A DNA stretch of 64,000 bases from Candidatus Latescibacterota bacterium (lineage in GTDB: Bacteria > Latescibacterota > UBA2968 > GCA-2709665): positions 4,096,001 through 4,160,000 of the forward strand of contig OZ241917.1 in NCBI GenBank assembly GCA_965203805.1, given 5' to 3'. The notes under the pieces were generated by a model. That model was given only the letters and a program-made list of their open reading frames with translations, was not told the DNA's origin and searched no databases. Of this stretch, positions 1 through 16,703 are shown in pieces (the stretch's first letter is position 1; each line of letters begins with the position of its first letter). A program made the position numbers and the translations under genes.

Positions 1-969
1 TTCAGTGGTTTTGTTCTTCGCGCCCGGCCGCGCGGTGGCCGACTTGACAACGGTTACAAGCAGTATTGCTTCGGACCAAGAGAAGTTAGATCCCAAATCG
101 TATCAAATGCAACATACACAACTCGTGCTTTGACGAATGGTCGATCCCTGTCGGCAGTGCGTATCCCAGTCCCACCAAAGCCTGAGCAACGCGCCATCGC
201 CGCGGCATTGTCGGATGTGGATGGGTTGCTCACGGCGCTGGAAGCGCTGATCGCCAAAAAGCGAGCCATCAAGCAGGCCGCTAGGCAACAACTCCTTACC
301 CGCAAGACTCGGTTGCCCGGGTTCACCGGGGCGTGGGTGACGAAGCGATTAGGTGAGCTAATTCGAATAATACCAAGTGGGATCTACGGCTTACCAAGAC
401 AAAACGGGCAACTAATAGCAATGCCAGTCGCGACCACAGCACACATTGATATTGGTGACAGGTGGAATCACAAGAATATGGACATTCGCTATTTCACGGA
501 AAATCAAAAAGCGAATTTTTCGCCTAGACAGGGCGATTTGATCGTTGTTAAATCAAGCGGCTCGTCCGAAAGTATACAATCTGGAAAGGTTGGATATGTC
601 TCGGATGATCAAGCTGGGTTATTCATCTTTAGCAACTTTTTGATGCTCCTTCGCCCAATTTTCTGCAATTCACAATTCTTGTTCTTTCAACTGGTATCTA
701 GTCGAGTGAAAAAGATGCTGCCACATTTGGTTGAAGCATCAACCTATCCCAATATCCGTATTGACGACTACTTGGACCTACAGATCCCGTTGCCGCCAAG
801 TGAGGAACAGGCAGCGATTGTGGACATCTTATCTGAAATTGATGCCGAGATTACTTCTCTGGAGCTACGGAGAGACAAAGCCCGTGCTATTAAATGTGGT
901 ATGGTGCAGCAGCTTCTCACCGGCCAGGTTAGGCTGGTCGACCCCGACTTTGATCACGCCAGGAGCTGA
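1..969 (+). CDS. hsdS: Type I restriction-modification specificity subunit (5'-truncated by window edge)
   Basis: Frame 1 is open from base 1 (FSGFVLRARP...). Two conserved HsdS helical segments (IPVPPKPEQRAIAAALSDVD...KKRAIKQAARQQLL; IPLPPSEEQAAIVDILSEID...KCGMVQQLLTG) flank a variable TRD. hsdR lies downstream. Confidence 0.95.
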   Translation, partial: FSGFVLRARPRGGRLDNGYKQYCFGPREVRSQIVSNATYTTRALTNGRSLSAVRIPVPPKPEQRAIAAALSDVDGLLTALEALIAKKRAIKQAARQQLLTRKTRLPGFTGAWVTKRLGELIRIIPSGIYGLPRQNGQLIAMPVATTAHIDIGDRWNHKNMDIRYFTENQKANFSPRQGDLIVVKSSGSSESIQSGKVGYVSDDQAGLFIFSNFLMLLRPIFCNSQFLFFQLVSSRVKKMLPHLVEASTYPNIRIDDYLDLQIPLPPSEEQAAIVDILSEIDAEITSLELRRDKARAIKCGMVQQLLTGQVRLVDPDFDHARS

Positions 970-1044
970 AGTTGGCTTAAGGATAGTGATTGAGAATTGT
1001 TAGACACACGTAATTCTTGAGCATAAGTATCCGGAGATATTCTG

Positions 1045-1998
1045 ATGTCCGATGCATTCAACACAAAGAAACAGCCAGTACCTTCTAGCATTGGTGACGA
1101 GTGCTTCCCTGCCCTATACCATTCTGCTGACAAAGCCTCACTTTCCGCGCAACAGCGTTTCATCTGTCTGCAAAGATGGCAAATCACTTGCCTCATTTTG
1201 GGTAGCGTTGGTGCTGTCACTGCGACAAATGTTGAGGTCGAAGTCGTCAAATTGGCTTATATTGTTTCGGCGATCGTACTAGCAATTCTAGTCATCCTCA
1301 CTTGGGTAACGCGTGCCCGTCGGGATGATAAAGTTTGGTTCGACTGTCGCGCCATTGCAGAGTCCACAAAGACAGCTACGTGGCGCTTCATGATGAAAGC
1401 TGCACCCTTCAAGGATGACAGCAAGGCTAGAAAGTTGTTCATTAACGAGCTTCGGCTAATACGAAAAGCGAGACCATTCATTGCGCAAAATTTGGCACAC
1501 AACTTAGACGCAAACGCCCCGTCCATAAGTGACTCAATGGATAATGTGCGCCAGAAGCCCTTGAATGATAGGCGATACGTGTATCTTGTGTCAAGGCTTC
1601 GCGACCAAAAGATTTGGTATTCCAATAAAGCCAAATTCAACTCAAGGATGGAACGGCGCTGGTTCTTTGGGGTGTTGGTACTACAGATTCTTGCCGTTGC
1701 TCTTGCAATCATCTGTGCTGCTACGGGTAGTTTGCCGGTAAACATCGTTCCATTGGTGTTAACCAGCGCCGCTGCTGGTATTGCATGGACCCGGATAAAG
1801 CGCTACGCTGAGCTAGCTCAGTCCTATTCGCTTGCGGCCCAAGAACTAGGAGACCAAGAAACAACCGCGTTGGATATAACGGAAGAAGCTGATTTCCTCG
1901 AACTCGTGGAGCAGGTCGAGCAGACCGTTTCTCGAGAGCACACTATGTGGTGTGCACGCCGAGATATAGTGTTCGATCCATCCGACATAAAGTACTAA
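1045..1998 (+). CDS. SLATT/DUF4231-type membrane effector (two tandem 2-TM SLATT-like domains)
   Basis: FPALYHSADKASLSAQ N-terminus, TM pair, WFDCRAIAESTKTATWRFMM, second TM pair, C-terminal VEQVEQTVSREHTMW; this pattern is typical of DUF4231/SLATT proteins. Confidence 0.8.
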   Translation: MSDAFNTKKQPVPSSIGDECFPALYHSADKASLSAQQRFICLQRWQITCLILGSVGAVTATNVEVEVVKLAYIVSAIVLAILVILTWVTRARRDDKVWFDCRAIAESTKTATWRFMMKAAPFKDDSKARKLFINELRLIRKARPFIAQNLAHNLDANAPSISDSMDNVRQKPLNDRRYVYLVSRLRDQKIWYSNKAKFNSRMERRWFFGVLVLQILAVALAIICAATGSLPVNIVPLVLTSAAAGIAWTRIKRYAELAQSYSLAAQELGDQETTALDITEEADFLELVEQVEQTVSREHTMWCARRDIVFDPSDIKY

Positions 1999-2056
1999 CA
2001 TGGCCAAGGTTAGAATTCTGTCCTGAAGTCGACGCGTACGTGGACCCTTCAGAATA

Positions 2057-3103
2057 ATGCAATCAAGGATGATTGGGATGACCATCCAGCAAGGCAATGG
2101 ACCTAGATATCTTAATGCCGGGTTCTGTACCGCAATAGAACGAAGCCTTCAGTTATATGTCGCTAAGACATCCGTTCAGCTACCTTGCTTTTTCCCGTCC
2201 GTTTCGAGCGTGAAGACAGCCCTATTACCGGTAAATTACCTTGACCTTCTGACCGTTGCCGGCCATTCACCTATCTTGTCGTCAGCCTATGATTTAGCTC
2301 ATTGTCCTGCCGATCAGCGCTCGCAAATGGAAACTGCACTTTCGAGGCGTACAGAAAGCGGTACAATTGTACTTATCGATAGCGGAAACTACGAACGCTA
2401 TTGGAAAAAAGATACCGAATGGCAACCGGCTCATTTTCATGAGATAGTCGGTTCCTTTCATCACGATCTTTGCTTCTGTTATGACAACCTAGAGCCACCT
2501 GACTCGCCGAAATCGATCGCCCAGGACGTCGTTGCCAGTGTAATCAGAGATCAGGATCATGCACAATCAACAGTGCTTCCGATAGTCCATGGCAACGCAG
2601 AATCATTGCCAGATGCGGCGCGTTTAACTGCGGAACAACTCTACCCTCTATTGTTGGCTGTGGCGGAACGAGATCTGGGAGAGGGAATTCTCGAGCGGAT
2701 CCGCACCGTACGGAAAATTCGAGCAGCGCTAAATTCATTAGGTTTCTATTGCCCGCTTCACCTGCTCGGTACGGGCAATCCGCTTTCAATCATTGCCTAT
2801 ACATTGGCGGGAGCCGATAGTTTTGACGGATTGGAATGGTGTCAGGTCGTTGTTGATCACGAAAATGGCAGGATGTTACATATGCAGCAATGGGATTTGG
2901 TCCGTCATCAGACAGATTGGCGTCCATCTGACGAACTACCATACCGCTACGCTGTTTTGATGCACAATCTGGAATTTTATCGCGAGTTTATGGTGGGGCT
3001 TCATGACGCGCTACGTTACGGAACAGTTGAACCGTTCGTTCAACAATACACAACTAAGGAACAATTGGATCGACTCTTGTCTGCTACCAAAGGAGACCAA
3101 TAG
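2057..3103 (+). CDS. tRNA-guanine transglycosylase-like protein (Cap10/DpdA-like TGT fold)
   Basis: PCFFPSVSS, IDSGNYE (DSG motif), PIVHG, LHLLGTGNP, GADSFDG (nucleophile Asp motif). No obvious C-terminal Zn-binding Cys cluster of canonical Tgt. Start could alternatively be 2078. Confidence 0.8.
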   Translation: MQSRMIGMTIQQGNGPRYLNAGFCTAIERSLQLYVAKTSVQLPCFFPSVSSVKTALLPVNYLDLLTVAGHSPILSSAYDLAHCPADQRSQMETALSRRTESGTIVLIDSGNYERYWKKDTEWQPAHFHEIVGSFHHDLCFCYDNLEPPDSPKSIAQDVVASVIRDQDHAQSTVLPIVHGNAESLPDAARLTAEQLYPLLLAVAERDLGEGILERIRTVRKIRAALNSLGFYCPLHLLGTGNPLSIIAYTLAGADSFDGLEWCQVVVDHENGRMLHMQQWDLVRHQTDWRPSDELPYRYAVLMHNLEFYREFMVGLHDALRYGTVEPFVQQYTTKEQLDRLLSATKGDQ

Positions 3104-3104
3104 C

Positions 3105-3818
3105 ATGGCGACGATAAAATTCACGCTTCTGGCTATTGAACAAGCGATCCGCGATGTCTGCAACACATTAGACGAGCGCCCCGCTGTGTCATGGAGAAAG
3201 CACAACGAAGGTGATTTGTGGCGGGAGCTTGTGTCATGTATCCTCGGTAGTCGGGTTCGAATTAACGTTGTAAACTCAGCCATCGAACGCATGACCAGAA
3301 TGTCTTTGTTGTCGCGACCCCAGCCACACACTTGTTTCAATCAACTTGAAGAGGACACTCTAGCAGCACTTAAGGGAGTTTATCCTTTTTTTCGTGTCCG
3401 TGCCAATCAGATTCGGCGGGCAGCAGAGCACATATACAGTTCACGAGGTTCAATACGCAGCCTGTTAAACGACTTAGAAGACGTTTGCATCGCTCGAAGA
3501 TTGCTAGTGCGAGAGGTTCCCGGTCTGGGACCGAAACAGGCAAGTCTTTTCCTTCGCAACATTGGTTTTGCAAAGTACATTGCGATCTTGGATGTACATG
3601 TTCTGACTTATTTGCGTTGGGTAGGAATTAGTGGCTCATCGTTCAAATCGATTTCGAATCTGTGCGAATACGAAGCGTTGGAAGGCGCCTTTATCGAACA
3701 TGCCTGTGCGTTCGGATACTCGCCTGACCAATTCGACCTTGCGGTCTGGATTGTAATAAGGGTGGCAAAGGAGGAATCCAAATTTGCGGATCGTGACTCT
3801 TGTATCGGGTGGATATGA
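3105..3818 (+). CDS. 8-oxoguanine DNA glycosylase/N-glycosylase-like, HhH-GPD superfamily (Cap11-like)
   Basis: LWRELVSCILGS; HhH motif VPGLGPKQASLFLRNIG with Lys; AILDVHV with catalytic Asp; C-terminal FDLAVW. ATG at 3105 with GGAG upstream, just after the TGT stop. Confidence 0.85.
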   Translation: MATIKFTLLAIEQAIRDVCNTLDERPAVSWRKHNEGDLWRELVSCILGSRVRINVVNSAIERMTRMSLLSRPQPHTCFNQLEEDTLAALKGVYPFFRVRANQIRRAAEHIYSSRGSIRSLLNDLEDVCIARRLLVREVPGLGPKQASLFLRNIGFAKYIAILDVHVLTYLRWVGISGSSFKSISNLCEYEALEGAFIEHACAFGYSPDQFDLAVWIVIRVAKEESKFADRDSCIGWI

Positions 3819-4380
3819 TTCAACACTTGTGAGCGTGATAGCGAAGGAGGAGGGAGCGGAGTTGTTTCCGCTCTTTATAGACTACGGCCAGCTTGCCGTA
3901 CGCAAGGAGTGGGAAGCCTGCGTGTGCCTTCACTCACAATTTGGTCTACCTCCTGTGACGTACATGGACTTGTCTGGGTTTGGAAAGACGATCTCAAGTG
4001 GTCTCACAGATTGTAATTTGCGTATTAATGAAGATGCATTTTTGCCGGGTCGCAATCTCCTCTTTGTCTTGGCAGGTGCGGCTCATGCTATCGACGTTCA
4101 GGCAAATAGCATCGCGCTCGGCCTACTCAATCCCGCGGATCATATCTTCCCAGACCAGACGAAACAGTTCTTGGAAGAATGCGAAAGGATGATCGAGGTT
4201 GCGATGGGGAGCCGCATTCTTGTCCTTGCGCCATTATTGGAGTTGTCAAAGCGAGAAGTCTTGCTCTTGGCCAGCAAACGAGGGATCACACAAACCTATT
4301 CGTGTCATGCTGGTGGTAAAGAACCTTGCGGGGTTTGTATTGCATGTATTGAAATCGATAATGCTAAAAAAAGGAGATAA
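3784..4380 (+). CDS. QueC-like (7-cyano-7-deazaguanine synthase family; Cap9-like) PP-loop enzyme
   Basis: PP-loop SGGYDS, IDYGQ, FLPGRNLLF, FPD, Zn motif YSCH...PCGVCIAC. TTG start overlaps the end of the glycosylase gene. Confidence 0.9.
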   Translation: MRIVTLVSGGYDSTLVSVIAKEEGAELFPLFIDYGQLAVRKEWEACVCLHSQFGLPPVTYMDLSGFGKTISSGLTDCNLRINEDAFLPGRNLLFVLAGAAHAIDVQANSIALGLLNPADHIFPDQTKQFLEECERMIEVAMGSRILVLAPLLELSKREVLLLASKRGITQTYSCHAGGKEPCGVCIACIEIDNAKKRR

Positions 4381-4382
4381 AG

Positions 4383-4886
4383 ATGGGCGGCATAGGTAGT
4401 GGTAGAGAATTAGACCCAAACGAACTGGAGTCACTCGAGCAGAGTGTCAGAAGGTCTCTTAAGGATCGTGTCGACGAGCACAAACGCAATGTGTTTATAA
4501 GCTTTTCATCGGATGATCTCAGTGAGGTTAATCTGCTGCGTGCTCAGGCGAGGAACCAAGACAGCAACATAGATTTCAATGATTGGTCACTGAGAAAACC
4601 GTTCGACAGTGAGGTAGCCGACTATATAAGGCGCGGTATTAGGGAACGAATTCGCCAATCTTCTGTAACTGTTGTCTATGTGTCTGAAAACACCGCAAGT
4701 AGCAAATGGGTCGACTGGGAGATAAGGGAGAGCCTCAAAATGGGAAAAGGCGTCGTTGCAATGCACAAAGGAAACACTGCACCACGACGACTTCCTAAGG
4801 CAATAATCGACAACAACATTAGTGTCGTACCCTGGAGACAAGATCACCTTGCGAGTATCATTGAGAGGGAATCCGAGAATCGTTAG
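4383..4886 (+). CDS. TIR-domain protein (ThsB/MTH538-like) with Gly-rich N-terminal extension
   Basis: RNVFISF, DFNDWSL, IRERIRQSSVTVVYV, SKWVDWEI (catalytic Glu), VVPW. AGGAG RBS; starts 2 nt after the queC-like stop. Confidence 0.88.
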   Translation: MGGIGSGRELDPNELESLEQSVRRSLKDRVDEHKRNVFISFSSDDLSEVNLLRAQARNQDSNIDFNDWSLRKPFDSEVADYIRRGIRERIRQSSVTVVYVSENTASSKWVDWEIRESLKMGKGVVAMHKGNTAPRRLPKAIIDNNISVVPWRQDHLASIIERESENR

Positions 4887-5104
4887 AAACGCAGGAATTA
4901 ACATTGACATGAAACGCCTCAGCAGTTTTCCTTGGGATTTGGCCGCAATTAGAATCGAGATTTGACTTTTCTGGACGGCGATTCTCTAATTAGCCGGACA
5001 TAAACGGGGGATAAGATGAATATTAACGAACCAAATGCCCCGTGCCTCTTGGGATTGCTAAATTGACGTCTTACAGTTAGGTGCTCGCTGAGGAGGGTCC
5101 CAAA

Positions 5105-6451
5105 ATGTTGACACGGCTACGTTTAGAGAATTTTAAATCCTGGGAAGATACAGGGAACATAACGTTTAAGCCTATCACAGGGTTTTTTGGTACCAATAGT
5201 TCTGGCAAGACCAGCCTTTTTCAAGCTCTGCTGTTAATGAAACAAACAGTCGACTCTTCGGACCCGGGAATTGTATTTCACTTCGGCGATGAGAAGACAC
5301 CTGTGGACCTAGGTGACTTTGAAAGCGTGGTCCACCAGCATGATACAAAGCGAAGTATTAAACTTTCACTTGGCTGGAACTCAGAGATTGAACTGCCTAT
5401 ATACGAAATTCGTAAGGCAGGGGCGACATCGCCAGGTGGCGAAATTGGCTTTGTTGCCGAGATCAAGGAAGAAAACATCGGTTCAGGGAAGTCTCCGATA
5501 TTGCAAGAAATGGCATATAGAGTCCGAGGGAGGCGGTTTGGATTGGTGCGTATAGCCGGTCGCAAGGCACACGAACTATTTGTTCAAGGTGCTGGTTTCG
5601 ATCACTCCCACCGTGTAAGGGATGACGAAAGAAATGTTAGGTCGCTCAAATTTCACGAGTTTCGATATTGGCCGCCTGAGTTCCTCAAAGACCCCACAGC
5701 AATGTACAGTCTACAAAACGCGATGGAGAGATTCCTGCGCGATCTCTATTATCTTGGACCTCTACGTGGCTACCCGTCTCGCATATATGCACGATCGGGA
5801 GCGCAACCGCGTGACATGGGCGCAGCAGGTGAGTTTGTAGTCGATGCGATACTTTCTTCACGTGAACGCGGCAGGAGAATTGGACAACGTAAACAATCTC
5901 AAAGTTTCGAGAGATATGTCGCTCAATGGCTAATGCGTCTCGGGATGATATTCGACTTTCGCGTAGTGGCATTAACTAAAGGGAGAAACTTGTACGAAGT
6001 AAAGGTTCGTAAGTCGCCCGATTCAGCGGAGGTCCTCCTCACTGACATTGGTTTCGGGGTTTCCCAGATTCTTCCCGTGTTGGTGTTGTGCTTTTATGTC
6101 CCCCGTAAGTCCAAGGTCATTTTGGAGCAGCCAGAGATTCACTTGCATCCTTCTGTACAGGCGGGCCTTGCTGATGTATTTATTGACGCTTGGCAGCAGC
6201 GCAATGTGCAGGTCTTGTTCGAAAGCCATAGCGAACATCTATTGCTTAGACTTCAACGTCGAATCGCAGAAGGAAAGATCAACAAGGATGACGTTAGCCT
6301 TTATTTCTGTTCAATGAACGACCAGGGTGCCTCAAACATTAGCCAGCTCGAGCTTGACAAATTCGGGAATATTTCCAATTGGCCTAAAGGGTTCTTTGGG
6401 GATCAGTTCGGTGAAATTGCCGCCATGAGCGAGGCCTTACAGAATAGGTAG
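5105..6451 (+). CDS. ABC-type AAA ATPase (AAA_15/AAA_21, DUF3696-like C-terminus)
   Basis: LENFKSW, Walker A GTNSSGKT, signature GFGVSQILP, Walker B ILEQPEIHLHP, H-loop ESHSEH, C-terminal WPKGFF. AGGAGG RBS before ATG 5105. Confidence 0.9.
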   Translation: MLTRLRLENFKSWEDTGNITFKPITGFFGTNSSGKTSLFQALLLMKQTVDSSDPGIVFHFGDEKTPVDLGDFESVVHQHDTKRSIKLSLGWNSEIELPIYEIRKAGATSPGGEIGFVAEIKEENIGSGKSPILQEMAYRVRGRRFGLVRIAGRKAHELFVQGAGFDHSHRVRDDERNVRSLKFHEFRYWPPEFLKDPTAMYSLQNAMERFLRDLYYLGPLRGYPSRIYARSGAQPRDMGAAGEFVVDAILSSRERGRRIGQRKQSQSFERYVAQWLMRLGMIFDFRVVALTKGRNLYEVKVRKSPDSAEVLLTDIGFGVSQILPVLVLCFYVPRKSKVILEQPEIHLHPSVQAGLADVFIDAWQQRNVQVLFESHSEHLLLRLQRRIAEGKINKDDVSLYFCSMNDQGASNISQLELDKFGNISNWPKGFFGDQFGEIAAMSEALQNR

Positions 6452-6462
6452 GGGTATCTCGA

Positions 6463-6963
6463 GTGAATTCGAAGAAACCTGAGATAATCATGGATACCAA
6501 TGTCGCCGTAGTTGCAAATCATAATTACCAAGACTTCAACCGGAGTTGCATATTTAAGTGTAGAGAAACATTAAGTATGATCCAGAACGGAGGGTTTCGG
6601 CTTCTTCTTGACGACGAGAATCTGATTATAGACGAATACCGAAGAAACCTCAACCCTTCAGGGGAGCCTGGTCTCGGGGACTATTTCTTCCTGTGGCTTT
6701 GGAAAAACCAAGCTAACGACCAGCATTGCCGGAAAATCACAGTAAAGCCTCACCGAGACCGTGGCTTCGAGGAGTTTCCCAATGACCCAGATCTCGATAC
6801 TTTCGATTGGGATGATCGAAAGTTCGTGGCTGTAGCGTTGGCTAGCCATTCTAGTCCGGAGTTGTTAAACGCATCTGATACAGATTGGTGGCACCACCGC
6901 GCAACACTTCAAAAAAATGGGATTCACGTGGTGTTTGTCTGTCCGGACCTGATGGACGATTGA
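6463..6963 (+). CDS. PIN-domain-like protein (putative ribonuclease)
   Basis: Acidic PIN pattern IIMDTNV, IIDEY, DWDDRKFVAVA, ASDTD. Starts 11 nt after the ATPase stop. Confidence 0.65.
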   Translation: MNSKKPEIIMDTNVAVVANHNYQDFNRSCIFKCRETLSMIQNGGFRLLLDDENLIIDEYRRNLNPSGEPGLGDYFFLWLWKNQANDQHCRKITVKPHRDRGFEEFPNDPDLDTFDWDDRKFVAVALASHSSPELLNASDTDWWHHRATLQKNGIHVVFVCPDLMDD

Positions 6964-7038
6964 GGCCAACTCATCGAGTGCGGCCAATGTCTTTCTCCCA
7001 GTTGTGAACTGGCCCGAGTTACTAAATTGCGAACGTAC

Positions 7039-10000
7039 ATGAACACAATCGGTCAAAACGAATTTCGCACACAGCGACGGGTGATTTCTTTCTTGCGGGA
7101 TTCGCTAGGGTACTCCTATCTCGGCAACTGGCAGGACCGCGTCGATAACAGTAATGTTGAGGAAGGGCTGCTCACCGATTGGCTGAAGCGAAATGGTCAC
7201 GGCGACAGTGTTATCAACAAAGTTCTGCGTGAACTGGACAACGCATCAGCACTCGGCGGCAGCAAGACTCTCTACGAAGCAAACCGTGAGGTTTATAGAC
7301 TGCTCCGTTACGGAGTGAAGGTCCGACCGGACGTCGGCGAACCGAACGTCACCGTCTGGCTGATGGACTGGGAGAATCCCGGTAAAAACGACTTTGCAAT
7401 CGCCGAGGAGGTTACAGTCTCAGCGACGAACAGCAAACGACCGGACATTGTGCTATACGTCAATGGGATCGCTCTCGGGATCCTGGAACTGAAGCGCTCG
7501 ACGGTTTCTGTGACCGAGGGCATTCGTCAAAACCTTGACAACCAGAAAAAGGAGTTCATCCGCCCCTTTTTCACCACCGTGCAACTCGTGATGGCGGGCA
7601 ATGATACCGAGGGGTTGCGTTACGGCGTAATCGAGACACCTGAGAAATACTGGCTGCACTGGATGGAAGCGAACGCCAACCCGGCTGCCGGCGATAATCC
7701 ATTACTGCGCGAGCTGAGTCAACTCTGCAGTAAAGAGCGATTACTTGAGATTATACATGATTTCGTCGTCTTTGACGCTGGGGTAAAGAAGATTTGCCGC
7801 CACAACCAGTACTTCGGGGTTCGTGCCGCACAAAAACGCGTAAAGATCCGAGAAGGCGGTATCATCTGGCACACGCAGGGGAGTGGAAAGAGCCTGACGA
7901 TGGTCTGGCTTGCGAAATGGATTCGCGAGAACGTCACCGACGCAAGGGTCCTTCTCATAACGGATCGCACGGAATTGGACGAGCAAATTGAGACTGTTTT
8001 CAAGGGTGTCAGCGAGGACATCTACCGGACGAAAAGTGGAGCTGATCTCGTGCAGGTGCTTAACAGACCCGACGAATGGCTGATCGGCTCCCTTATCCAC
8101 AAGTTCGGTACAACCGACGATATCAGCGAAAGAGAAATCGAGGCCTACGTCGACGAGATCAAGAAGAATCTACCCGGTGATTTCCGTCCCAAGGGCGAAA
8201 TTTTCGTTTTCGTGGACGAATGTCACCGCACCCAGTCCGGAAAACTCCACGAGGCAATGAGGGCAATTTTACCAGGCGCTTCGCACATTGGCTTTACTGG
8301 AACCCCTTTGCTCAAGGCAGACAAGCGCCGCAGCATCGAGACTTTCGGAACCTACATCCACACCTATAAGTACGACGAAGCGGTGCGCGATGGCGTGGTG
8401 CTGGACTTGCGTTACGAAGCACGTGACATCGATCAGATTATAACTTCGCAGGAGAAAATAGATCAGTGGTTCGAAATCAAGACTCGCGAGTTGACCGACG
8501 TCGCTAAAGCCGAACTAAAGCAGCGATGGGGGACGATGCGAAATGTCCTTAGTTCCGAGGATCGGTTGAGAAAAATCGTTGGCGACATAATGTTCGACAT
8601 GCAGACGCGTGACCGGTTGAAAAGTGGTCGCGGAAATGCATTGCTTGTTTCCGGAAGCATCCACTCTGCCTGCCGCCTCTTTGATATGTTTCAGCAGACC
8701 GATTTGGCGGATAGGTGCGCCATTGTCACGTCTTACAAACCGGCCCCGGGGGACATCAAGGGAGAGGAAACGGGCGAGGGGCTTACCGAGAGACTTCGCC
8801 GTTACGGAATCTACCGAAGGATGCTTTCGGCTCACTTCAACGAGCCTGAAGACAAGGCGATGGGCAAGGTCGCCACGTTTGAGACGGAGGTAAAGAAACG
8901 GTTTATCGAGGAACCGGGACAGATGAAGCTGTTGATCGTCGTAGATAAACTGTTGACAGGTTTCGATGCACCATCGGCGACCTATCTTTACATTGACAAA
9001 CACATGCAGGACCACGGGCTCTTCCAGGCGATCTGCCGGGTAAACCGCCTCGACGGTGAGGACAAAGAATATGGATACATCGTCGACTACAAGGACCTGT
9101 TCCGTTCGTTGGAGCAGTCGATTCAGGATTACACCGGAGGTGCCTTCGGCGGGTACGACCGCACCGATGTGCAGGGGTTGCTGACAGACAGGCTCGCGAA
9201 GGGGCGGGAACGACTCGAGGAGACACGTGAGGCTATCAGGGCTTTGTGTGAGCCCGTCGCCCCGCCCCGCAACCGGTCGGCCTATCTACGTTTCTTCTGT
9301 GGGACAGATAGTGGAAACGGGGGCTGGCTTAATGCGGACAATGAGGCAAGGCGAGTTACGCTTTACAAGCGGGCTGCTGCGTTTTTGAGGGCTTACGCCA
9401 ACCTGGCCAATGAGATGCCCGACGCCGGTTACAGTGAAGCCGAGGCGCAAGAGATAAAAGCAGAAGTAGCCCACTACGAAAATGTCCGCAAGATAGTCAA
9501 GCTCGCGAGCAGCGACTACGTTGACCTGAAGATGTTTGAGCCTGCCATGAGGCACCTCCTCGACACCTACATCCGCGCCGAGGAGAGCGAAAAGCTCTCG
9601 GCGTTTGACGATCTGACACTTGTACAGCTAATCGTCAAGAAAGGTGATAAGGCGTTAGATGCACTTCCAGACGGTATTCGCAGTGATCAGGAGGCGACGG
9701 CCGAGACGATAGAGAATAACGTCCGCCGTCTCATCATCGACGAGACCCCGGTCAACCCTAAATATTACGGCAAGATGTCTGAGTTGTTGGACGCCCTGAT
9801 CCTTCAGCGTAAGCAGGAAAGCCTCGACTACAAGGTGTACCTTGCGAGAATTATTGACTTGGCCAAAAAAGTCAGCAGTCCTGAATCCGAAACGTCCTAT
9901 CCGTCGGAAATCGACACCAACACGCTCAGGTCTCTATTCGATAACTTACAGGGTGCCGCACTTGGACAAGACAAGGCCTATGCCGACACTGGGATGGAGC

Positions 10001-10191
10001 TTTCCGCGGATGAACTTTCCGCAAAGGCGGTCGCTGTGGATAACGCCATCCGTTGCGTCAAGAAAGCGGACTGGCGTGGAAACAAATTTAAGGAACGGGA
10101 GGTCCGCAACGCTATAAGGTCGCAACTCGGCGACAACGAGGGCCTCGTGTACCACATATTCGAGATTGTAAAGGCGCAGAGTGAATACTGA
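7039..10191 (+). CDS. hsdR: Type I restriction endonuclease subunit R
   Basis: Nuclease motif RPDIVLYVNG..LELK, Walker A HTQGSGKS, DECHR, GFTGTP, LLTGFDAP, QAICRVNR. Confidence 0.97.
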   Translation: MNTIGQNEFRTQRRVISFLRDSLGYSYLGNWQDRVDNSNVEEGLLTDWLKRNGHGDSVINKVLRELDNASALGGSKTLYEANREVYRLLRYGVKVRPDVGEPNVTVWLMDWENPGKNDFAIAEEVTVSATNSKRPDIVLYVNGIALGILELKRSTVSVTEGIRQNLDNQKKEFIRPFFTTVQLVMAGNDTEGLRYGVIETPEKYWLHWMEANANPAAGDNPLLRELSQLCSKERLLEIIHDFVVFDAGVKKICRHNQYFGVRAAQKRVKIREGGIIWHTQGSGKSLTMVWLAKWIRENVTDARVLLITDRTELDEQIETVFKGVSEDIYRTKSGADLVQVLNRPDEWLIGSLIHKFGTTDDISEREIEAYVDEIKKNLPGDFRPKGEIFVFVDECHRTQSGKLHEAMRAILPGASHIGFTGTPLLKADKRRSIETFGTYIHTYKYDEAVRDGVVLDLRYEARDIDQIITSQEKIDQWFEIKTRELTDVAKAELKQRWGTMRNVLSSEDRLRKIVGDIMFDMQTRDRLKSGRGNALLVSGSIHSACRLFDMFQQTDLADRCAIVTSYKPAPGDIKGEETGEGLTERLRRYGIYRRMLSAHFNEPEDKAMGKVATFETEVKKRFIEEPGQMKLLIVVDKLLTGFDAPSATYLYIDKHMQDHGLFQAICRVNRLDGEDKEYGYIVDYKDLFRSLEQSIQDYTGGAFGGYDRTDVQGLLTDRLAKGRERLEETREAIRALCEPVAPPRNRSAYLRFFCGTDSGNGGWLNADNEARRVTLYKRAAAFLRAYANLANEMPDAGYSEAEAQEIKAEVAHYENVRKIVKLASSDYVDLKMFEPAMRHLLDTYIRAEESEKLSAFDDLTLVQLIVKKGDKALDALPDGIRSDQEATAETIENNVRRLIIDETPVNPKYYGKMSELLDALILQRKQESLDYKVYLARIIDLAKKVSSPESETSYPSEIDTNTLRSLFDNLQGAALGQDKAYADTGMELSADELSAKAVAVDNAIRCVKKADWRGNKFKEREVRNAIRSQLGDNEGLVYHIFEIVKAQSEY

Positions 10192-10915
10192 GTGGAAAAC
10201 TTACAGCATTGAGGTACGAGGGACTGCGGTCGACGTGGTCCACAAGGACATCAAAAACCTCCATATTGGGGTTTACCCGCCGAACGGCAGGGTGAGAGTG
10301 GCCGCTCCGCTCAGTCTTGATGATGACGCGGTGCGGATGGCTGTTGGGTCTCGGCTGGGATGGATTCGTCGCCATCAGTCGAAATTCGAGAAACAGAGTC
10401 GGCAGTCCCAGCGGGAATTCGTTACAGGAGAAAGCCATTATTTCGAGGGGAGGCGCTACCGACTCGATGTAACGGAACAGGACGGTCGACCTTCGGTCTG
10501 TCTCCTCAATAACACTACTATGGGTATGTGCGTTCGCCCCGGCGCCGACCGGAATACCAGAGAGTCCGTGCTGGATCGATGGTACCGCCAGCATCTCCGT
10601 GATCGTCTACCGGGCCTCATCGCGAAGTGGGAACCTGAATTGGGTGTGGAAGTCAATGAAGCTCGTATCAGGAAGATGAAGACTCGTTGGGGTACCTGCA
10701 ACCCGAATGCCTGTCGAATCTGGCTGAATCTCGAGCTGGCAAAGAAACCGGCATCCTGCCTAGACTTCGTCGTTCTCCATGAAATGGTTCACTTGATCGA
10801 GCGTCGTCACAACGATCGTTTTCGGTCGCTGATGGACAGGTTCATGCCAACTTGGCGCTATCACCGGGACGAACTCAATCGATCGCCACTGGCGCATGCG
10901 GACTGGCAGTATTGA
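10181..10915 (+). CDS. M48/DUF45 (YgjP-like) metal-dependent hydrolase, copy 1
   Basis: MKTRWGTC, HEMVH zinc motif, HNDRF. Overlaps the hsdR stop, a usual position for this family. Confidence 0.92.
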   Translation: MNTEWKTYSIEVRGTAVDVVHKDIKNLHIGVYPPNGRVRVAAPLSLDDDAVRMAVGSRLGWIRRHQSKFEKQSRQSQREFVTGESHYFEGRRYRLDVTEQDGRPSVCLLNNTTMGMCVRPGADRNTRESVLDRWYRQHLRDRLPGLIAKWEPELGVEVNEARIRKMKTRWGTCNPNACRIWLNLELAKKPASCLDFVVLHEMVHLIERRHNDRFRSLMDRFMPTWRYHRDELNRSPLAHADWQY

Positions 10916-12657: not shown

Positions 12658-15603
12658 ATGATCGCCCAGTCCTTAAGGCAGGTGCTTGAAGCCACTGGCT
12701 ATCTGGAAAATGGTGAACCGGCACATGGCGTTTACCTGGAGGACGACGCCCGTACCAGGTGCCAGGCCCGGGAGTTTGAACCCGACGCGCTGTGGCGCAG
12801 CGACTCAGCGCTCACTGTCTACTTCAAGCTTGAACAGGAAGACCCGTCTACTAAGCAGGTGGAACGGTGGCGTAAGGAGATCTGGAACCAGGGTTTCGCC
12901 CCGTTGTTATGGGTGGTTTCACCGCATAGAATAGATCTATACAACGGGTTCGGTCGTCCCCGAGAGACAGAGGATGCTGCGGCGTACCTGTTGGATACAT
13001 TCAAACTGATCGCTAGTGAGTTGGCCAAACTCGACAGCTTTGCCGGCCGCCTGGCGATGGAAACGGGACAATTCTGGCAACAAGCGCCCACCGTTGACCG
13101 AAAGACCAGCGTGGACCGGCAGCTTCTCAACGACCTTGCAGCACTTGAGCAAGACCTTGTTGGAGAAAGACTTGGCCGCCCGGACGCCCAAGGGTTGATA
13201 GGCCGGGCGATATTCACCCAATATCTGATTGATCGCAAAATCATTACGAAATCATTCTTGGCGTGCGAGTACGGTCGCCGCACCTTTCCATCCATATTGC
13301 GAGATCCGCAATCTACAGAGCAATTGTTCGATTGGCTTCGAGATAGTTTCAATGGGGACATGTTTCCGCCGCAGGGATCAACTGCGCCAAGACCGGAGCA
13401 TCTGTGTAGGGTTGCAGACTTCCTCGACGGTGTGCATCCCCAGTCGCGACAGACGACGCTTTTTCCGTATCAATTCGATGTAATTCCAGTCGAACTGATT
13501 AGCTCAATCTACGAACAGTTCGCCCACTCCACCCCGGCGACTCTCAACACTGATCTCCGAAGAGATGTGTTCTATACCCGGCTATCACTCGTTTCTCTGG
13601 TACTGGATGAAACCATGGAAGGACTCTCTGGCGAGGAATCCGTGGTTGATCTGACGTGTGGGTCAGGTGTTTTCCTTGTTGAAGCCTTGCGAAGGCTGGT
13701 CAATCTTCGGTCGCACGGCTGCAAACCGAATCGCGAAGTTATCCGTTCCACGCTGCACCAACAGATCTACGGTATGGATATAAGTGATGCTGCAGTGCGT
13801 GTCGCTGCGTTCAGTCTATACTTGGCGGCATTGGAACTTGACCCAGACCCGCATTCCCCTGAGTCATTGAAGTTCAAGCCGCTAATTGGAAAGACGCTTA
13901 TCGTCGGTGACGTTTGGGATATCGAAAGAATGACTAACGGAGAGGTTTTTCAGCCAGGATGGAATGCCCGGAGAACATTCGATATCATTGTTGGCAATCC
14001 ACCATGGAGCTATCGAGGTCGCACGTCGACCGCCGCGCGACAGCGCCGGGGCGGAACGACTCACGTGCTTCCACCACGAGGCGAAAGCTTAGATTTCGTG
14101 TTTCGAGCAATGGGATTTGCCTCGGAGGATACCCGATTCGGTCTAGTTCTGAGCGCTGTTCAATTTTTCGGTCGAAGCAAAAAGGGTGCTGCCGCATCGC
14201 GACGAATCATTGAGAAGCTCTCCCCGGTGACTCTGGTTAATCTGGCGAATCACACTAATTGGCTGTTTCCAAAAAGTAATATGCCCGCAGTTGTACTCTT
14301 CGCGAGGCACCGCGTCTCTCGATCGGACACGATCACCGCTGTTCAAGTGCCTTGGTCGTCCGCGGGAGCAAAGAGCCACACATTCCAAATCGCACGTAGC
14401 GATATCATTACGCTGCCGTTGGGTGACTGGAAGCGAAAGCCGGAATTCTTGAAAGCCGCGTTTGTTGGATGTCGGCGGGATCTATCGTTATTAGACAGGT
14501 TGACGTCCCGACATCTGACACTGGGCGAATGCCTTGGGGGGCTAGGCGCAAGACTAAATGCCGGGCTGAAGCTCGGCAATCGAAGTAAGGATTCGAGCTT
14601 TCTTAAGGGTCTTCCGCTAGTTGCGAATGGAGACCTTGGACCGTTCTCCGCAAGAGCGGACTTGGGGAAGTTTGACGAAGAGAGGGCCGAACGACCGCGG
14701 AAGCGCGAGACCTATCGTGCGCCATTGTTGATCCTTAAGGAGTTCATGATTCGCAATCCGCGCCCCGTAGTAGCCGTTGTGGATCGAGATTCCGTTTACG
14801 CGGACGCCTACTTCGGCGCGTCTCTTGGTTCGGCGCCAGAGGGGGCCGCCCACTTGCTCTCGGCTATCCTCAGTTCGTCGCTTGCTTCCTGGTTCTTCCT
14901 AATGTCCTCATCCACATTCGGATTGTGGATGCAAAGGCTCCTGCGTCGAGACGTCGAACGCTTTCCTGTACCCAATCTGGAAGAAACTCTTAGCTCCGAC
15001 GCGGGCCGATGCGTCGTAGAGCACGCTTTAGAGTTTCAGCGAGATTTACCGAGTGCTTCTGATTGGAGAGCTCTCGACGAAGCTGTCTTCGACCTGTATG
15101 ACCTGGACAAATCTGATCGCATTGTCGCGCGTGACGGTCTGTTCCGCGCCAGTTGGCAATGGCAGGCTGGCAGGAATGCTTCCGTGAAAGCCGCCGAAGT
15201 TCGCGACGTTTCTATCTACGCACGTACGTTTCAAACAGCGGTGGAGGCCTGGCTTTCAGCAGCGAATAAACGCTGTATGCGCGCGGAAGTCTTCGAACTT
15301 CCCGAACGTGCGCCACTTCGAGTCGTTCGCTTCATTCTTAATGAGCGCACCCGCATTACGAAGCCTTCTCGGTTGGAGGTTGTAACACCGGACGGAGACT
15401 TGAGGGATGTACTTAACAGGATCGGCGAACGCCTGGAGGTTCCGCTTGCAAACTCCCTGATTGGTCAACGCGAACTTCGGGTGCATGGCCACAACGAGGT
15501 TGTGATCATTAAGCCTGCCGCCCTTCGACACTGGATGGGCGTGTCGGCATTAGAAGACGCGGACTCGGTCATCGTCGAGAGCTTCTCGGGGACCGCCGAA
15601 TGA
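12658..15603 (+). CDS. Large N6-adenine DNA methyltransferase (Eco57I/Type IIG-like architecture)
   Basis: FNGDMF, ELISSIYEQF, motif I DLTCGSGVFL, YGMDI, motif IV GNPPW, TRD-like C-terminal half. Confidence 0.9.
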   Translation: MIAQSLRQVLEATGYLENGEPAHGVYLEDDARTRCQAREFEPDALWRSDSALTVYFKLEQEDPSTKQVERWRKEIWNQGFAPLLWVVSPHRIDLYNGFGRPRETEDAAAYLLDTFKLIASELAKLDSFAGRLAMETGQFWQQAPTVDRKTSVDRQLLNDLAALEQDLVGERLGRPDAQGLIGRAIFTQYLIDRKIITKSFLACEYGRRTFPSILRDPQSTEQLFDWLRDSFNGDMFPPQGSTAPRPEHLCRVADFLDGVHPQSRQTTLFPYQFDVIPVELISSIYEQFAHSTPATLNTDLRRDVFYTRLSLVSLVLDETMEGLSGEESVVDLTCGSGVFLVEALRRLVNLRSHGCKPNREVIRSTLHQQIYGMDISDAAVRVAAFSLYLAALELDPDPHSPESLKFKPLIGKTLIVGDVWDIERMTNGEVFQPGWNARRTFDIIVGNPPWSYRGRTSTAARQRRGGTTHVLPPRGESLDFVFRAMGFASEDTRFGLVLSAVQFFGRSKKGAAASRRIIEKLSPVTLVNLANHTNWLFPKSNMPAVVLFARHRVSRSDTITAVQVPWSSAGAKSHTFQIARSDIITLPLGDWKRKPEFLKAAFVGCRRDLSLLDRLTSRHLTLGECLGGLGARLNAGLKLGNRSKDSSFLKGLPLVANGDLGPFSARADLGKFDEERAERPRKRETYRAPLLILKEFMIRNPRPVVAVVDRDSVYADAYFGASLGSAPEGAAHLLSAILSSSLASWFFLMSSSTFGLWMQRLLRRDVERFPVPNLEETLSSDAGRCVVEHALEFQRDLPSASDWRALDEAVFDLYDLDKSDRIVARDGLFRASWQWQAGRNASVKAAEVRDVSIYARTFQTAVEAWLSAANKRCMRAEVFELPERAPLRVVRFILNERTRITKPSRLEVVTPDGDLRDVLNRIGERLEVPLANSLIGQRELRVHGHNEVVIIKPAALRHWMGVSALEDADSVIVESFSGTAE

Positions 15604-16575: not shown

Positions 16576-16703
16576 CGGAACAAGGTGCGCGACTCGGATG
16601 TCAAGTTCGAGTGTTTACACCAAACGCCATTTCGCGTAAAGCGTCAACTGCTTCCGTTCTATAAGACAATACAACGGCAAGTGGAATTTTGGCAGGTAAA
16701 GCA

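What the first reader, a model, noticed from the sequence alone, without database searches (positions are those of the whole stretch)
1045..4886. Candidate new defence system: TIR + SLATT effector carrying the QueC/TGT/OGG module of type IV CBASS, without a CD-NTase
Seen: five co-directional, tightly packed genes (SLATT 4-TM, TGT-like, HhH glycosylase, QueC-like, TIR) with 1-2 nt gaps or overlaps among the last four, and catalytic motifs intact. Known: QueC (Cap9), TGT (Cap10) and N-glycosylase (Cap11) define type IV CBASS; ThsB-like TIRs make NAD-derived signals in Thoeris; SLATT proteins are predicted membrane effectors of nucleotide-signalling systems. Inference: the TIR replaces the cyclase as signal generator, the deazaguanine module regulates it, and SLATT is the killing effector, making a Thoeris/type-IV-CBASS hybrid. 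I know of no experimental description, but cannot exclude mention in computational surveys.
Basis: partly seen in the sequence, partly recalled or inferred. Interest (0 to 1): 0.93.

Follow-up and report, generated by a model that had tools for sequence, protein, structure and literature searches.

The report
Thoeris TIR system with deazaguanylation helpers
A five-gene anti-phage operon in which a small TIR signalling enzyme, not a CBASS cyclase, carries the glycine tail that QueC-, TGT- and OGG-like helper enzymes are known to tag with a deazaguanine base; the architecture is real and widespread, but a 2025 preprint already noted it and nobody has tested it at the bench.

Summary
Five intact co-directional genes lie at 1045-4886: a SLATT protein with four hydrophobic segments, a Cap10-like TGT, a Cap11-like OGG, a Cap9-like QueC and a ThsB-type TIR. 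All catalytic residues are conserved.

The TIR carries a roughly 35-residue N-terminal extension that starts MGG. This matches the M(G/S)G(G/S)GG handle on which type IV CBASS Cap9 attaches 7-amido-7-deazaguanine to the cyclase.

- Database homologues starting MG[GS]: 118 of 120.
- Genomic-locus homologues starting with the handle: 74 of 77.
- Other TIRs in the same loci with the handle: 0 of 19.
- Assessable loci from many phyla with TGT and QueC directly upstream of the TIR: 72 of 74 (67 also have OGG).
- Neighbours scanned one by one that are a CD-NTase: none.

A structure model supports Cap10-like/TIR binding (0.61; best control 0.00).

The architecture is not new. Yirmiya et al. [quoted passage not shown] No experiment on the Cap9/10/11 form was found.

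Verdict: a new member of a known, computationally described and experimentally untested kind, sitting in the cargo slot of a type I R-M operon. Interest is moderate.

The parts
1045..1998 (+). SLATT effector (317 aa; SLATT_3 plus SLATT_1, two 2-TM hairpins), the likely ThsH-like membrane effector
   Evidence: Pfam SLATT_3 1.8e-33 and SLATT_1 6.9e-33. NCBIfam SLATT_3 2e-42. Four hydrophobic segments. A SLATT-family ORF lies within 3.5 kb of the TIR in 52 of 80 related loci, plus 3 more seen by tblastn only.
2057..3103 (+). Cap10-like TGT-family protein (348 aa)
   Evidence: PADLOC TGT 7.9e-26. It scores below the NCBIfam tRNA-TGT cut-offs. Its only PDB sequence hit is Cap10 9ntn_A at 1.2e-7, or 2.6e-18 with the family profile. 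D108 and D257 align with Cap10 D73 and D248 and are invariant in 40 of 40.
3105..3818 (+). Cap11-like HhH-GPD (Ogg2-type) glycosylase (237 aa)
   Evidence: Pfam Ogg-HhH 5e-23. The family profile hits archaeal Ogg 3fhg at 1.9e-27. HhH Lys K144 and Asp D163 are invariant in 34 of 34. No PADLOC model matches.
3784..4380 (+). Cap9-like QueC-family ATP-dependent ligase (198 aa, TTG start)
   Evidence: Pfam QueC 3.6e-34 and PADLOC QueC 2.2e-27. It scores below the NCBIfam QueC cut-off, 112 against 150 bits. The best PDB hit is Cap9 9nto_B at 3e-12. S8/D12/S13, R90, F122 and D124 align with Cap9 S18/D22/S23, R86, Y115 and D117 and are invariant in 37 of 37.
4383..4886 (+). ThsB-type TIR (167 aa), the predicted signal generator and deazaguanylation substrate
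   Evidence: Pfam ThsB_TIR 3.5e-25 and PADLOC ThsB 2.6e-17. W112-E113 is invariant. Fold matches are the B. cereus TIR 8fz9 and ThsB 8wcf and 6lhy.
4383..4487 (+). N-terminal extension of the TIR: glycine handle MGGIGSG, then a helix and a linker (residues 1-35)
   Evidence: 118 of 120 database homologues start MG[GS]. 74 of 77 locus homologues pass the handle test (M[GS]G or MG[GS]). 0 of 19 other TIRs in the same loci have it. In the AF2 model, residues 1-10 have pLDDT below 50, a helix spans 12-28, and the TIR fold starts at 35. The motif matches the CD-NTase handle M(G/S)G(G/S)GG of type IV CBASS.

Best explanation
This is a Thoeris-type TIR signalling defence operon of type VII architecture (ThsB TIR plus SLATT effector). 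It carries the deazaguanylation helper set known from type IV CBASS.

The steps below are inferred by analogy unless marked otherwise.
1. Met1 of the TIR is removed, exposing Gly2.
2. The Cap9-like QueC enzyme activates host-made 7-carboxy-7-deazaguanine with ATP and ligates it to the Gly2 amine (NDG).
3. The Cap10-like TGT binds the tagged TIR. It holds or primes it, possibly transferring it to an unknown target through its Asp nucleophile.
4. The Cap11-like Ogg2-type glycosylase counteracts that step.
5. On phage infection the TIR converts NAD+ into a signal, most likely canonical cADPR.
6. The SLATT protein, with four predicted membrane-spanning segments, binds the signal, oligomerises in the membrane and kills or arrests the cell.

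Shown here: gene content, motif conservation, the handle, conserved synteny without a cyclase, and a model-level Cap10-like/TIR interface.
For: - Domains and intact catalytic residues.
- Best PDB sequence matches are Cap10 (9ntn) and Cap9 (9nto). The residues needed for Cap9 and Cap10 function are conserved (paper passages).
- The glycine handle is present in 118 of 120 and 74 of 77 homologues, and in 0 of 19 co-resident handle-less TIRs. L032 has no Cap9/10/11 genes within range upstream of its TIR, and its TIR also lacks the handle.
- 72 of 74 assessable loci have TGT and QueC directly upstream of the TIR, and 67 also have OGG. They span Latescibacterota, Nitrospirales, Acidobacteriota, Pseudomonas, Brenneria, Bacteroidia, Dehalococcoidia and others.
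- None of the neighbours scanned one by one is a SMODS/CD-NTase: 10 cluster representatives and 20 mid-size same-strand neighbours.
- Partner effectors are SLATT (52 of 80 loci) and TPR-S proteins (15 of 80), with both in 3 loci. The preprint reports SLATT and CMP-hydrolase-TPR effectors as responding to cADPR, and also finds those two effectors together in some operons.
- Complex model of Cap10-like with TIR: score 0.61, best of 3 controls 0.00. That mark was reached by 58 of 80 solved complexes and 2 of 110 mismatched pairs. The runs agree in at least 66% of contacts, and partner pLDDT is at least 72.
- The host genome has two canonical-scoring QueC genes and a QueD/PTPS gene, so a 7-deazaguanine supply is plausible.
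- Yirmiya et al. independently propose the same mechanism, with AF3 ipTM 0.79 and 0.62 on a Pseudomonadales homologue.
Against: - I found no experiment on any TIR-linked Cap9/10/11 operon in the held library. Every functional step is by analogy.
- The confident contacts in the complex model are TIR residues 36, 46 and 68-92 against Cap10-like residues 34-39, 159-198 and 229-230. The glycine tail is not among them, so insertion of the tail into the Cap10 pocket is not supported.
- A Cap10-CdnD structure is solved, so part of the pass may come from likeness to it.
- The window's handle is MGGIGSG. Residue 4 is Ile, outside the published M(G/S)G(G/S)GG pattern, and its closest relatives share this.
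- Homology of this SLATT protein to the tested ThsH was not checked, because I held no ThsH sequence. cADPR is a guess from effector class alone.
- 16 of 80 loci showed neither SLATT nor TPR-S by ORF clustering. Three of these have a tblastn SLATT hit and several are truncated contigs.
- The family-tally scan of 61 other neighbours listed only 25 of 61 families, so a weak SMODS hit could be hidden there.
- QueE was not searched in the host genome.
Confidence: 0.75

Rival explanations
1. The TIR is itself the effector, an NAD+-depleting NADase released or activated by the deazaguanine module. SLATT is then an accessory or independent membrane protein, and no diffusible signal is involved.
For: Some bacterial TIR domains are NADase effectors (recalled knowledge). 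The TIR fold search also hits SARM1 and DNPH1-like hydrolases. No ligand-sensing domain is recognised in the SLATT protein.
Against: The protein is a small single-domain ThsB-type TIR, and its best matches are ThsB proteins. Its conserved partners are SLATT and TPR-S proteins. The preprint reports SLATT and CMP-hydrolase-TPR effectors as receivers of a TIR-made signal. SLATT lies in the same-strand gene chain in 43 of 80 loci.
Confidence: 0.12
2. The QueC, TGT and OGG genes modify nucleic acid, not the TIR. They would insert or excise 7-deazaguanine in DNA or tRNA, as Dpd-like systems do, serving the surrounding type I R-M operon. The TIR and SLATT genes would be a separate neighbouring system.
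For: TGT-family DpdA inserts deazaguanine into DNA, and Ogg enzymes act on DNA (recalled knowledge). 27 of 80 loci contain type I R-M genes.
Against: The QueC-like and TGT-like proteins match Cap9 and Cap10 best. They fall below the NCBIfam cut-offs for QueC and Tgt. QueC abuts the TIR with a 2-nt gap here and lies directly upstream of it in 72 of 74 loci. The handle is specific to that TIR. 53 of 80 loci show no R-M gene.
Confidence: 0.08
3. This is a decayed type IV CBASS that lost its cyclase, or a chance juxtaposition of unrelated defence genes in an island.
For: The operon sits in a defence island with other systems: HEC-03, type I R-M and a type IIG enzyme. A CD-NTase exists elsewhere in the genome.
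Against: The same order and strand recur across many phyla, with TIR identities from 44% to 93% and all catalytic residues kept. The distant cyclase has its own effector and E2, and no handle.
Confidence: 0.03

Closest known systems
[quoted passage not shown] 6G and S10B; section 9 read in full)
   Same: TIR and effector together with cap9, cap10 and cap11, without a cyclase. The proposed mechanism is the same. AF3 there and the model here both place the TIR on Cap10.
   Different: That report is two sentences plus AF3 models, with no experiment. The main text I searched does not mention the N-terminal glycine handle. It gives no counts, no effector range and no R-M context. Its figures and supplementary tables could not be seen, so I cannot say whether this clade is among its examples.
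Type IV CBASS (Wassarman et al., bioRxiv 10.1101/2025.04.06.647259; passages and section 7 read)
   Same: Cap9-like, Cap10-like and Cap11-like genes with the same catalytic residues. The signal-generating enzyme starts with a glycine handle after Met1.
   Different: The signal generator is a ThsB TIR, not a CD-NTase. Cap11 is present in 67 of 74 loci here, against about one-third of type IV CBASS operons in that paper. Sequence similarity to the solved Cap9 and Cap10 is remote (50 and 34 bits).
Type VII Thoeris (ThsB plus SLATT effector ThsH, canonical cADPR; same preprint)
   Same: A small TIR next to a SLATT membrane protein.
   Different: Type VII is a two-gene system with no helper enzymes. 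Homology of this two-domain SLATT_3+SLATT_1 protein to the tested ThsH, and the identity of the signal, were not tested here.
Type VIII Thoeris (ThsI, CMP-hydrolase plus TPR; same preprint)
   Same: In 15 of 80 related loci the partner is a TPR-S protein. In 14 it is a MAP3K_TRAF_bd+TPR-S protein and in 2 an alpha/beta-hydrolase+TPR-S protein, with L070 carrying both. Three loci have both SLATT and TPR-S.
   Different: This does not apply to the window itself, which has only SLATT. Equivalence of these TPR-S proteins to ThsI is inferred from domain class, not tested.

Membership tests
Thoeris (TIR-based signalling defence) | ThsB-type TIR with the catalytic glutamate | tested here: met
   ThsB_TIR 3.5e-25. 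PADLOC ThsB 2.6e-17. E113 is invariant in 39 of 39. The W[VI][DN]WE motif is present in 120 of 120. ThsB structures are the top hits.
Thoeris (TIR-based signalling defence) | An effector gene in the same operon as the TIR | tested here: met
   SLATT lies at 1045-1998 on the same strand. SLATT or TPR-S partners are present in 64 of 80 related loci by ORF clustering.
Thoeris (TIR-based signalling defence) | Phage-dependent NAD-derived signal that activates the effector, and phage protection | not testable with these tools
   Needs phage challenge and LC-MS.
Type VII Thoeris (ThsB + ThsH) | The SLATT effector is homologous to the tested ThsH, and the signal is canonical cADPR | not tested
   I held no ThsH sequence. 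Only the Pfam class (SLATT) is shared.
Type IV CBASS | A CD-NTase (SMODS) in the operon | tested here: not met
   None of the five proteins has a SMODS domain. The only genomic SMODS hit is about 0.81 Mb away, in a phospholipase-cyclase-E2 CBASS. None of the related-locus neighbours scanned one by one is a cyclase.
Type IV CBASS | Cap9: QueC-family enzyme with the SxGxDS PP-loop and NDG-binding residues | tested here: met
   The best PDB hit is Cap9 9nto_B at 3e-12. S8/D12/S13, R90, F122 and D124 are invariant in 37 of 37.
Type IV CBASS | Cap10: TGT-family protein with the D73 and D248 equivalents | tested here: met
   D108 and D257 align with D73 and D248 of 9ntn_A and are invariant in 40 of 40.
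Type IV CBASS | N-terminal M(G/S)G(G/S)GG handle on the signal-generating enzyme | tested here: met
   The handle is on the TIR instead of a cyclase. It reads MGGIGSG in the window, and is present in 118 of 120 and 74 of 77 homologues. Actual modification is not testable here.
Thoeris with Cap9/Cap10/Cap11 (Yirmiya et al. Fig. 6G) | TIR plus effector plus cap9, cap10 and cap11 in one operon | tested here: met
   The description was read.
Dpd-like 7-deazaguanine DNA modification | A DpdA-type TGT with DpdB and helicase or ATPase partners, and a canonical preQ0 pathway in the cluster | tested here: inconclusive
   None of the operon's proteins, and neither of the two genes that follow it, has a helicase or ParB-like domain. 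The TGT-like protein matches Cap10 best. No DpdA or DpdB model was searched explicitly.

The most novel reading that the evidence does not exclude
The Cap10-like and Cap11-like pair may work on nucleic acid. In this reading the Cap10-like TGT grafts the deazaguanine-tagged TIR into a guanine position of DNA or RNA by transglycosylation, as TGT and DpdA do with free bases, and the Ogg2-like Cap11 cuts it out again. The TIR would then be tethered to, and switched by, a nucleic-acid target. The frequent placement of the cassette in the cargo slot of type I R-M operons (27 of 80 loci) would reflect functional coupling rather than mere island hitch-hiking. A milder corollary is that the four-gene TGT-OGG-QueC-handle-TIR unit is a portable priming module, and may be at least as common in nature as type IV CBASS itself (134 species genomes here, against the 49 operons counted in the Wassarman preprint; the two counts come from different databases and are not comparable).
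Probability: 0.12. Interest if true: 0.85.

Novelty: new member of a known kind. Interest (0 to 1): 0.45.

Why it matters
Deazaguanylation, a nucleobase-to-protein conjugation, has so far been demonstrated only on a CBASS cyclase.

This family shows the same helper set and the same glycine handle on an unrelated enzyme fold, a TIR. It does so in at least 134 species-level genomes from many phyla. That argues the helpers form a general, transferable priming module for immune signal generators, parallel to Cap2/Cap3.

The small, highly conserved TIR (161-172 aa in the 120 listed homologues, 63-93% identical to the window's) offers a second and simpler substrate. It could be used to find the still unknown target of Cap10 and the role of Cap11, which is kept in 67 of 74 loci here.

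For annotation, the PADLOC 2.0 models hit only the parts (TGT, QueC, ThsB). With neither a cyclase nor a ThsA present, the operon is probably left uncalled by that tool. This last point is my inference.

Tried and rejected
**Searches that found nothing useful**
- N-terminal extension against the PDB: a search with the first 38 residues of the TIR at E up to 10 gave only chance hits (a designed TPR and triosephosphate isomerase). It did not find the CdnD tail, so homology of the handle between TIR and cyclase is neither shown nor excluded.
- Rfam at gathering thresholds and ARAGORN over the whole window: no preQ1 riboswitch, no other RNA family, no tRNA.
- Promoter and terminator scan of 800-5300: counts were no higher than in shuffles (6 against 5.3, and 4 against 3.5), so nothing can be said about transcription units.
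- Sequencing runs: no RNA holder was listed for 1000-5000.
- Viral contigs: only 2-3 close relatives of the TIR (L082, L083 and perhaps L084) among 14 loci. They were not followed up.

**Limits of the cyclase check**
- The Pfam tally of 61 further same-strand neighbours showed TIR_2 in 9 and no SMODS among the 25 of 61 families listed. The list is truncated.
- I therefore scanned 20 of the 21 mid-size (250-502 aa) neighbours one by one and found no cyclase. L028:411-1160 was left out.
- ORF-cluster labels such as hsdM, hsdS and TRAFbd-TPR-S rest on one Pfam-scanned representative per cluster.

**Literature**
- Searches were run.
- In the held library, only the Yirmiya preprint links TIR with Cap9/Cap10.
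- PMC13329287 (passages) reports that 67% of Cap9-cluster genes sit beside a CD-NTase. The terms TIR, Thoeris and SLATT do not occur in its main text.
- PMC9503650 and PMC7159879 (passages) mention no QueC or TGT.
- PMC13434031 and PMC13376578 (passages) add nothing on TIR-linked forms.
- Not held, so not checked: Burroughs et al. 2015 NAR, which I recall as the first description of SLATT and of QueC/TGT/Ogg with SMODS, and the Science version of Wassarman et al. Either may mention TIR-linked forms.
- Supplementary tables are closed. They may list these operons (Table S1 and S3 of the Yirmiya preprint, Table S2 of PMC13329287).

**Not done**
- A fair count of TIR-linked against cyclase-linked Cap9/Cap10.
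- A QueE search in the host genome.
- Comparison with ThsH or ThsI sequences.
- A tree.

Full report
**1. The observation**

| Coordinates | Length | Identity | Best family hits |
|---|---|---|---|
| 1045-1998 | 317 aa | SLATT | SLATT_3 1.8e-33, SLATT_1 6.9e-33 |
| 2057-3103 | 348 aa | TGT-like | Pfam TGT 3.3e-11, PADLOC TGT 7.9e-26 |
| 3105-3818 | 237 aa | OGG-like | Ogg-HhH 5e-23, no PADLOC model |
| 3784-4380 | 198 aa | QueC-like | QueC 3.6e-34, PADLOC QueC 2.2e-27 |
| 4383-4886 | 167 aa | TIR | ThsB_TIR 3.5e-25, PADLOC ThsB 2.6e-17 |

- The junctions are tight and each start is preceded by a Shine-Dalgarno-like motif. TGT to OGG has a 1-nt gap, OGG and QueC overlap by 35 nt with a TTG start, and QueC to TIR has a 2-nt gap.
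- The QueC-like, TGT-like and OGG-like proteins all score below the NCBIfam cut-offs for the housekeeping enzymes: 112 against 150 bits, 25 against 48, and 87 against 183. They are diverged paralogues, not the tRNA or repair enzymes.
- The SLATT protein has two hydrophobic hairpins, at 47-65/67-85 and 207-225/229-247.

**2. Context**

The operon lies inside a type I R-M operon.
- Upstream of the window is hsdM (PADLOC MTase_I, E = 0; L097:4137-6674) followed by an unassigned 287-aa ORF.
- hsdS runs into the window at 1-969.
- The five genes are followed by a second embedded two-gene candidate system, HEC-03B at 5081-6451 (2.4e-128) and HEC-03A at 6463-6963 (6.7e-33).
- Then come hsdR at 7027-10191 and a YgjP-like peptidase.
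- G+C is 45-50% across 500-7000, against 52-58% from 7000 onward.

**3. What the helper genes are**

- By sequence, the only PDB match of the TGT-like protein is Cap10 of type IV CBASS (9ntn_A, 1.2e-7). With a 40-sequence family profile the match is 2.6e-18, far ahead of archaeosine TGT at 4.7e-5.
- The alignment places D108 (IDSGNYE) on Cap10 D73 and D257 (SFDGLEW) on Cap10 D248. These are the two residues whose mutation abolishes type IV CBASS defence. Both are invariant in 40 of 40 family members.
- The QueC-like protein matches Cap9 best (9nto_B, 3e-12).
  - Its PP-loop S8/D12/S13 corresponds to Cap9 S18/D22/S23.
  - R90, F122 and D124 correspond to the NDG-contacting R86, Y115 and D117.
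  - All are invariant in 37 of 37 members, as are four zinc-site cysteines.
- The OGG-like protein aligns with archaeal Ogg2-type glycosylase/lyases (3fhg, 1.9e-27). It keeps the HhH lysine K144 and aspartate D163 in 34 of 34 members.

**4. The TIR carries the cyclase's handle**

Wassarman et al. (preprint; passages and section 7 read) showed three things:
- Cap9 ligates 7-amido-7-deazaguanine (NDG) to Gly2 of the CD-NTase.
- Every type IV cyclase has an N-terminal extension starting M(G/S)G(G/S)GG.
- Deleting the handle or mutating G2 abolishes defence.

The window's TIR starts MGGIGSGRELDPNELE and has about 35 residues ahead of the TIR domain (Pfam match from residue 38).
- The TIR has 1108 database relatives at E <= 1e-3. 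The 120 listed are 161-172 aa long and 63-93% identical.
- 118 of these 120 start MG[GS]. The other two read MVGG and VGGG, the latter an alternative-start artefact. On average, 6.3 of residues 2-9 are glycine.
- In the genomic loci, 74 of 77 TIRs with a callable start begin with the handle.
  - L014 reads MAGSGGG.
  - L023 reads MGNKS.
  - L032 reads MTRQ. No Cap9/10/11 genes were found within range upstream of its TIR.
- As a control, 0 of 19 additional TIR genes in the same loci have the handle. These start directly with the TIR strand, for example MAKKKIFVSYDYDND.
- An AF2 model (mean pLDDT 78) gives a floppy tail at 1-10 (pLDDT below 50), a helix at 12-28, a linker, and a confident TIR fold from residue 35.
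- The nearest solved folds are a B. cereus TIR (8fz9) and ThsB proteins (8wcf, 6lhy, 9b7d).

**5. Conserved synteny without a cyclase**

A scan of one genome per species (185,579 species) found 134 genomes encoding a relative of the TIR, and 80 loci were kept. They come from:
- Latescibacterota, the closest (L002 has 93% TIR identity and the same HEC-03 and hsdR neighbours);
- Nitrospirales, Binatia, Poribacteria, Acidobacteriota and Methylomirabilota;
- Planctomycetota, Dehalococcoidia, Bacteroidia and Firmicutes-type MAGs;
- Saccharimonadales and many Proteobacteria, including cultured Pseudomonas, Brenneria, Limnohabitans, Rhodobacter and Hoeflea.

Of the 74 loci with at least 2450 nt upstream of the TIR:
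- 67 have TGT-OGG-QueC directly upstream, in that order and on that strand;
- 5 have TGT and QueC without OGG;
- 2 have none (L032, and L054, which is a TIR fragment).

No cyclase was found among the neighbours scanned one by one: 10 cluster representatives and 20 of 21 mid-size same-strand neighbours. A batch tally of 61 further neighbours showed extra TIR domains as the commonest family (9 members). It showed no SMODS among the 25 families listed, but that list is truncated.

In the window's own genome the single SMODS hit is about 0.81 Mb away. It sits in a phospholipase (3.1e-84), cyclase (6.9e-118) and E2 (3.3e-72) CBASS. That cyclase starts MNSWDR, without a handle.

**6. Partners**

- A SLATT-family ORF lies within 3.5 kb in 52 of 80 loci, and in 3 more by tblastn only.
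- 29 are two-domain forms like the window's. 23 are single-domain forms of 140-189 aa, most of them (20 of 23) directly upstream of TGT.
- 15 loci have a TPR-S protein:
  - MAP3K_TRAF_bd+TPR-S in 14 loci;
  - alpha/beta-hydrolase+TPR-S in 2 loci, with L070 carrying both kinds.
- 3 loci have both SLATT and TPR-S.
- 15 loci add a handle-less ThsB TIR, for example SLATT-TIR2-TGT-OGG-QueC-TIR in L005, L006 and L010. One locus has a TIR-NB-ARC-TPR protein.
- 27 of 80 loci contain type I R-M genes, often as hsdM-hsdS-SLATT-TGT-OGG-QueC-TIR.
- hsdR identity to the window falls in step with TIR identity:

| Locus | hsdR identity | TIR identity |
|---|---|---|
| L002 | 91% | 93% |
| L003 | 84% | 89% |
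| L005 | 75% | 73% |
| L006 | 76% | 71% |
| L014 | 70% | 64% |
| L012 | 67% | 62% |
| L032 | 63% | 61% |

  This suggests the R-M operon and its cargo travel together. That is my inference.

**7. Binding model**

- A two-chain model of the Cap10-like protein and the TIR, each given as a family alignment, scored 0.61. The best of 3 controls scored 0.00.
- That mark was reached by 58 of 80 solved complexes and by 2 of 110 mismatched pairs. The runs agree in at least 66% of contacts, and partner pLDDT is at least 72.
- The confident interface is the TIR helix region 68-92, plus residues 36 and 46, against Cap10-like residues 34-39, 159-198 and 229-230.
- The glycine tail is not among the confident contacts. 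The model therefore supports an association but does not show the tail in the pocket.
- A Cap10-cyclase complex is solved, so some of the score may reflect likeness to it.

**8. Comparison with what is known**

Yirmiya et al. [quoted passage not shown]
- Their AF3 models place the TIR on Cap10 (ipTM 0.79) and on Cap9 (ipTM 0.62).
- They report no experiment on these operons.
- The main text I searched does not mention the N-terminal handle.
- They define TIR+SLATT as type VII Thoeris and TIR+CMP-hydrolase-TPR as type VIII. Both use canonical cADPR, and the two effectors sometimes share an operon.

The window's operon therefore fits "Thoeris of type VII architecture with Cap9/10/11 helpers". 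It fails the defining test of type IV CBASS, which requires a cyclase. Literature searches found no other paper linking TIR with Cap9/Cap10. Burroughs et al. 2015 and the journal version of Wassarman et al. are not held, and supplements are closed.

**9. Mechanism and confidence**

My preferred chain of events:
1. The Cap9-like enzyme tags Gly2 of the TIR.
2. The Cap10-like protein binds and primes or restrains the tagged TIR.
3. The Cap11-like glycosylase reverses that step.
4. Infection triggers the TIR to make an NAD-derived signal.
5. SLATT kills or arrests the cell.

Confidence in this chain is 0.75. The host has two canonical-scoring QueC genes and a QueD gene, so 7-carboxy-7-deazaguanine should be available. 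QueE was not checked. The identity of the signal (cADPR) and the SLATT response rest only on the effector classes, and I would put them near 0.5.

**10. Verdict**

The novelty claim falls, because the architecture is in print as a computational note.

- the handle statistics with a within-locus control;
- residue-level conservation against the solved Cap9 and Cap10 structures;
- the breadth of the family (134 species genomes);
- the high retention of Cap11;
- the effector range;
- the frequent type I R-M cargo position.

Noticed in passing
window 5081-6963: A second embedded two-gene candidate defence system sits directly after the TIR. It is an AAA_15/DUF3696 ATPase (PADLOC HEC-03B, 2.4e-128) followed by a 166-aa protein (HEC-03A, 6.7e-33; weak PIN_3 hit). 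The more likely ATPase start is the ATG at 5105. The same pair follows the cassette in L002 and L003.
   Followed up: partly
L097:4137-6674 and window 1-969, 7027-10915: The type I R-M operon is split by cargo. Its order is hsdM, an unassigned 287-aa ORF, hsdS, seven cargo genes, hsdR, then a YgjP-like metallopeptidase. In L032 the same hsdS...hsdR frame holds different cargo, including a handle-less TIR. The slot between hsdS and hsdR therefore looks like a variable cargo site.
   Followed up: partly
window 12658-15603: A 981-aa type IIG restriction-methyltransferase-like protein (PADLOC REase_MTase_IIG, 3e-49). It is followed by an unassigned 221-aa ORF and a DUF1828 protein at 16689-17480. 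The defence island therefore extends to roughly 17.5 kb.
   Followed up: no
G000:C1 about 4913196-4916398 (L096:3197-6399): A separate CBASS elsewhere in the genome: a patatin-like phospholipase effector, a CD-NTase and an E2-only helper.
   Followed up: partly
G000:C1:1072189-1072818: A third strong QueC-family match (211 bits) lies in a 510-aa open frame, besides the 263-aa frame at 3118648 and the Cap9-like gene. It may be a fused or defence-type QueC. I did not examine it.
   Followed up: no
window 24695-34966 (- strand): A giant 3423-aa type I polyketide synthase. Pfam hits are two KS and two AT stretches, a DH, a methyltransferase, an ER-type zinc dehydrogenase, a KR and an ACP (PP-binding) domain.
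   Followed up: no
window 55765-57942: An unusual 725-aa fusion of a GPP34 (Golgi phosphoprotein 3-like) domain with a cytochrome P450 domain. It sits next to an AcrB-family transporter at 52563-55739.
   Followed up: no
L005:4289-4687, L006:4304-4705, L010:2198-2596 and others: 15 related loci carry a second, handle-less ThsB TIR, often between SLATT and TGT. There the TGT-OGG-QueC-TIR unit looks appended to an ordinary two-gene SLATT-TIR Thoeris. The window lacks this second TIR.
   Followed up: partly
L083 (82.7-kb IMG/VR contig), match at 7001-7441: A relative of the handle-bearing TIR (50% identity, residues 1-151, the Pseudomonas type) lies on a contig classed as viral. The cassette may sometimes ride on prophages.
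   Followed up: no
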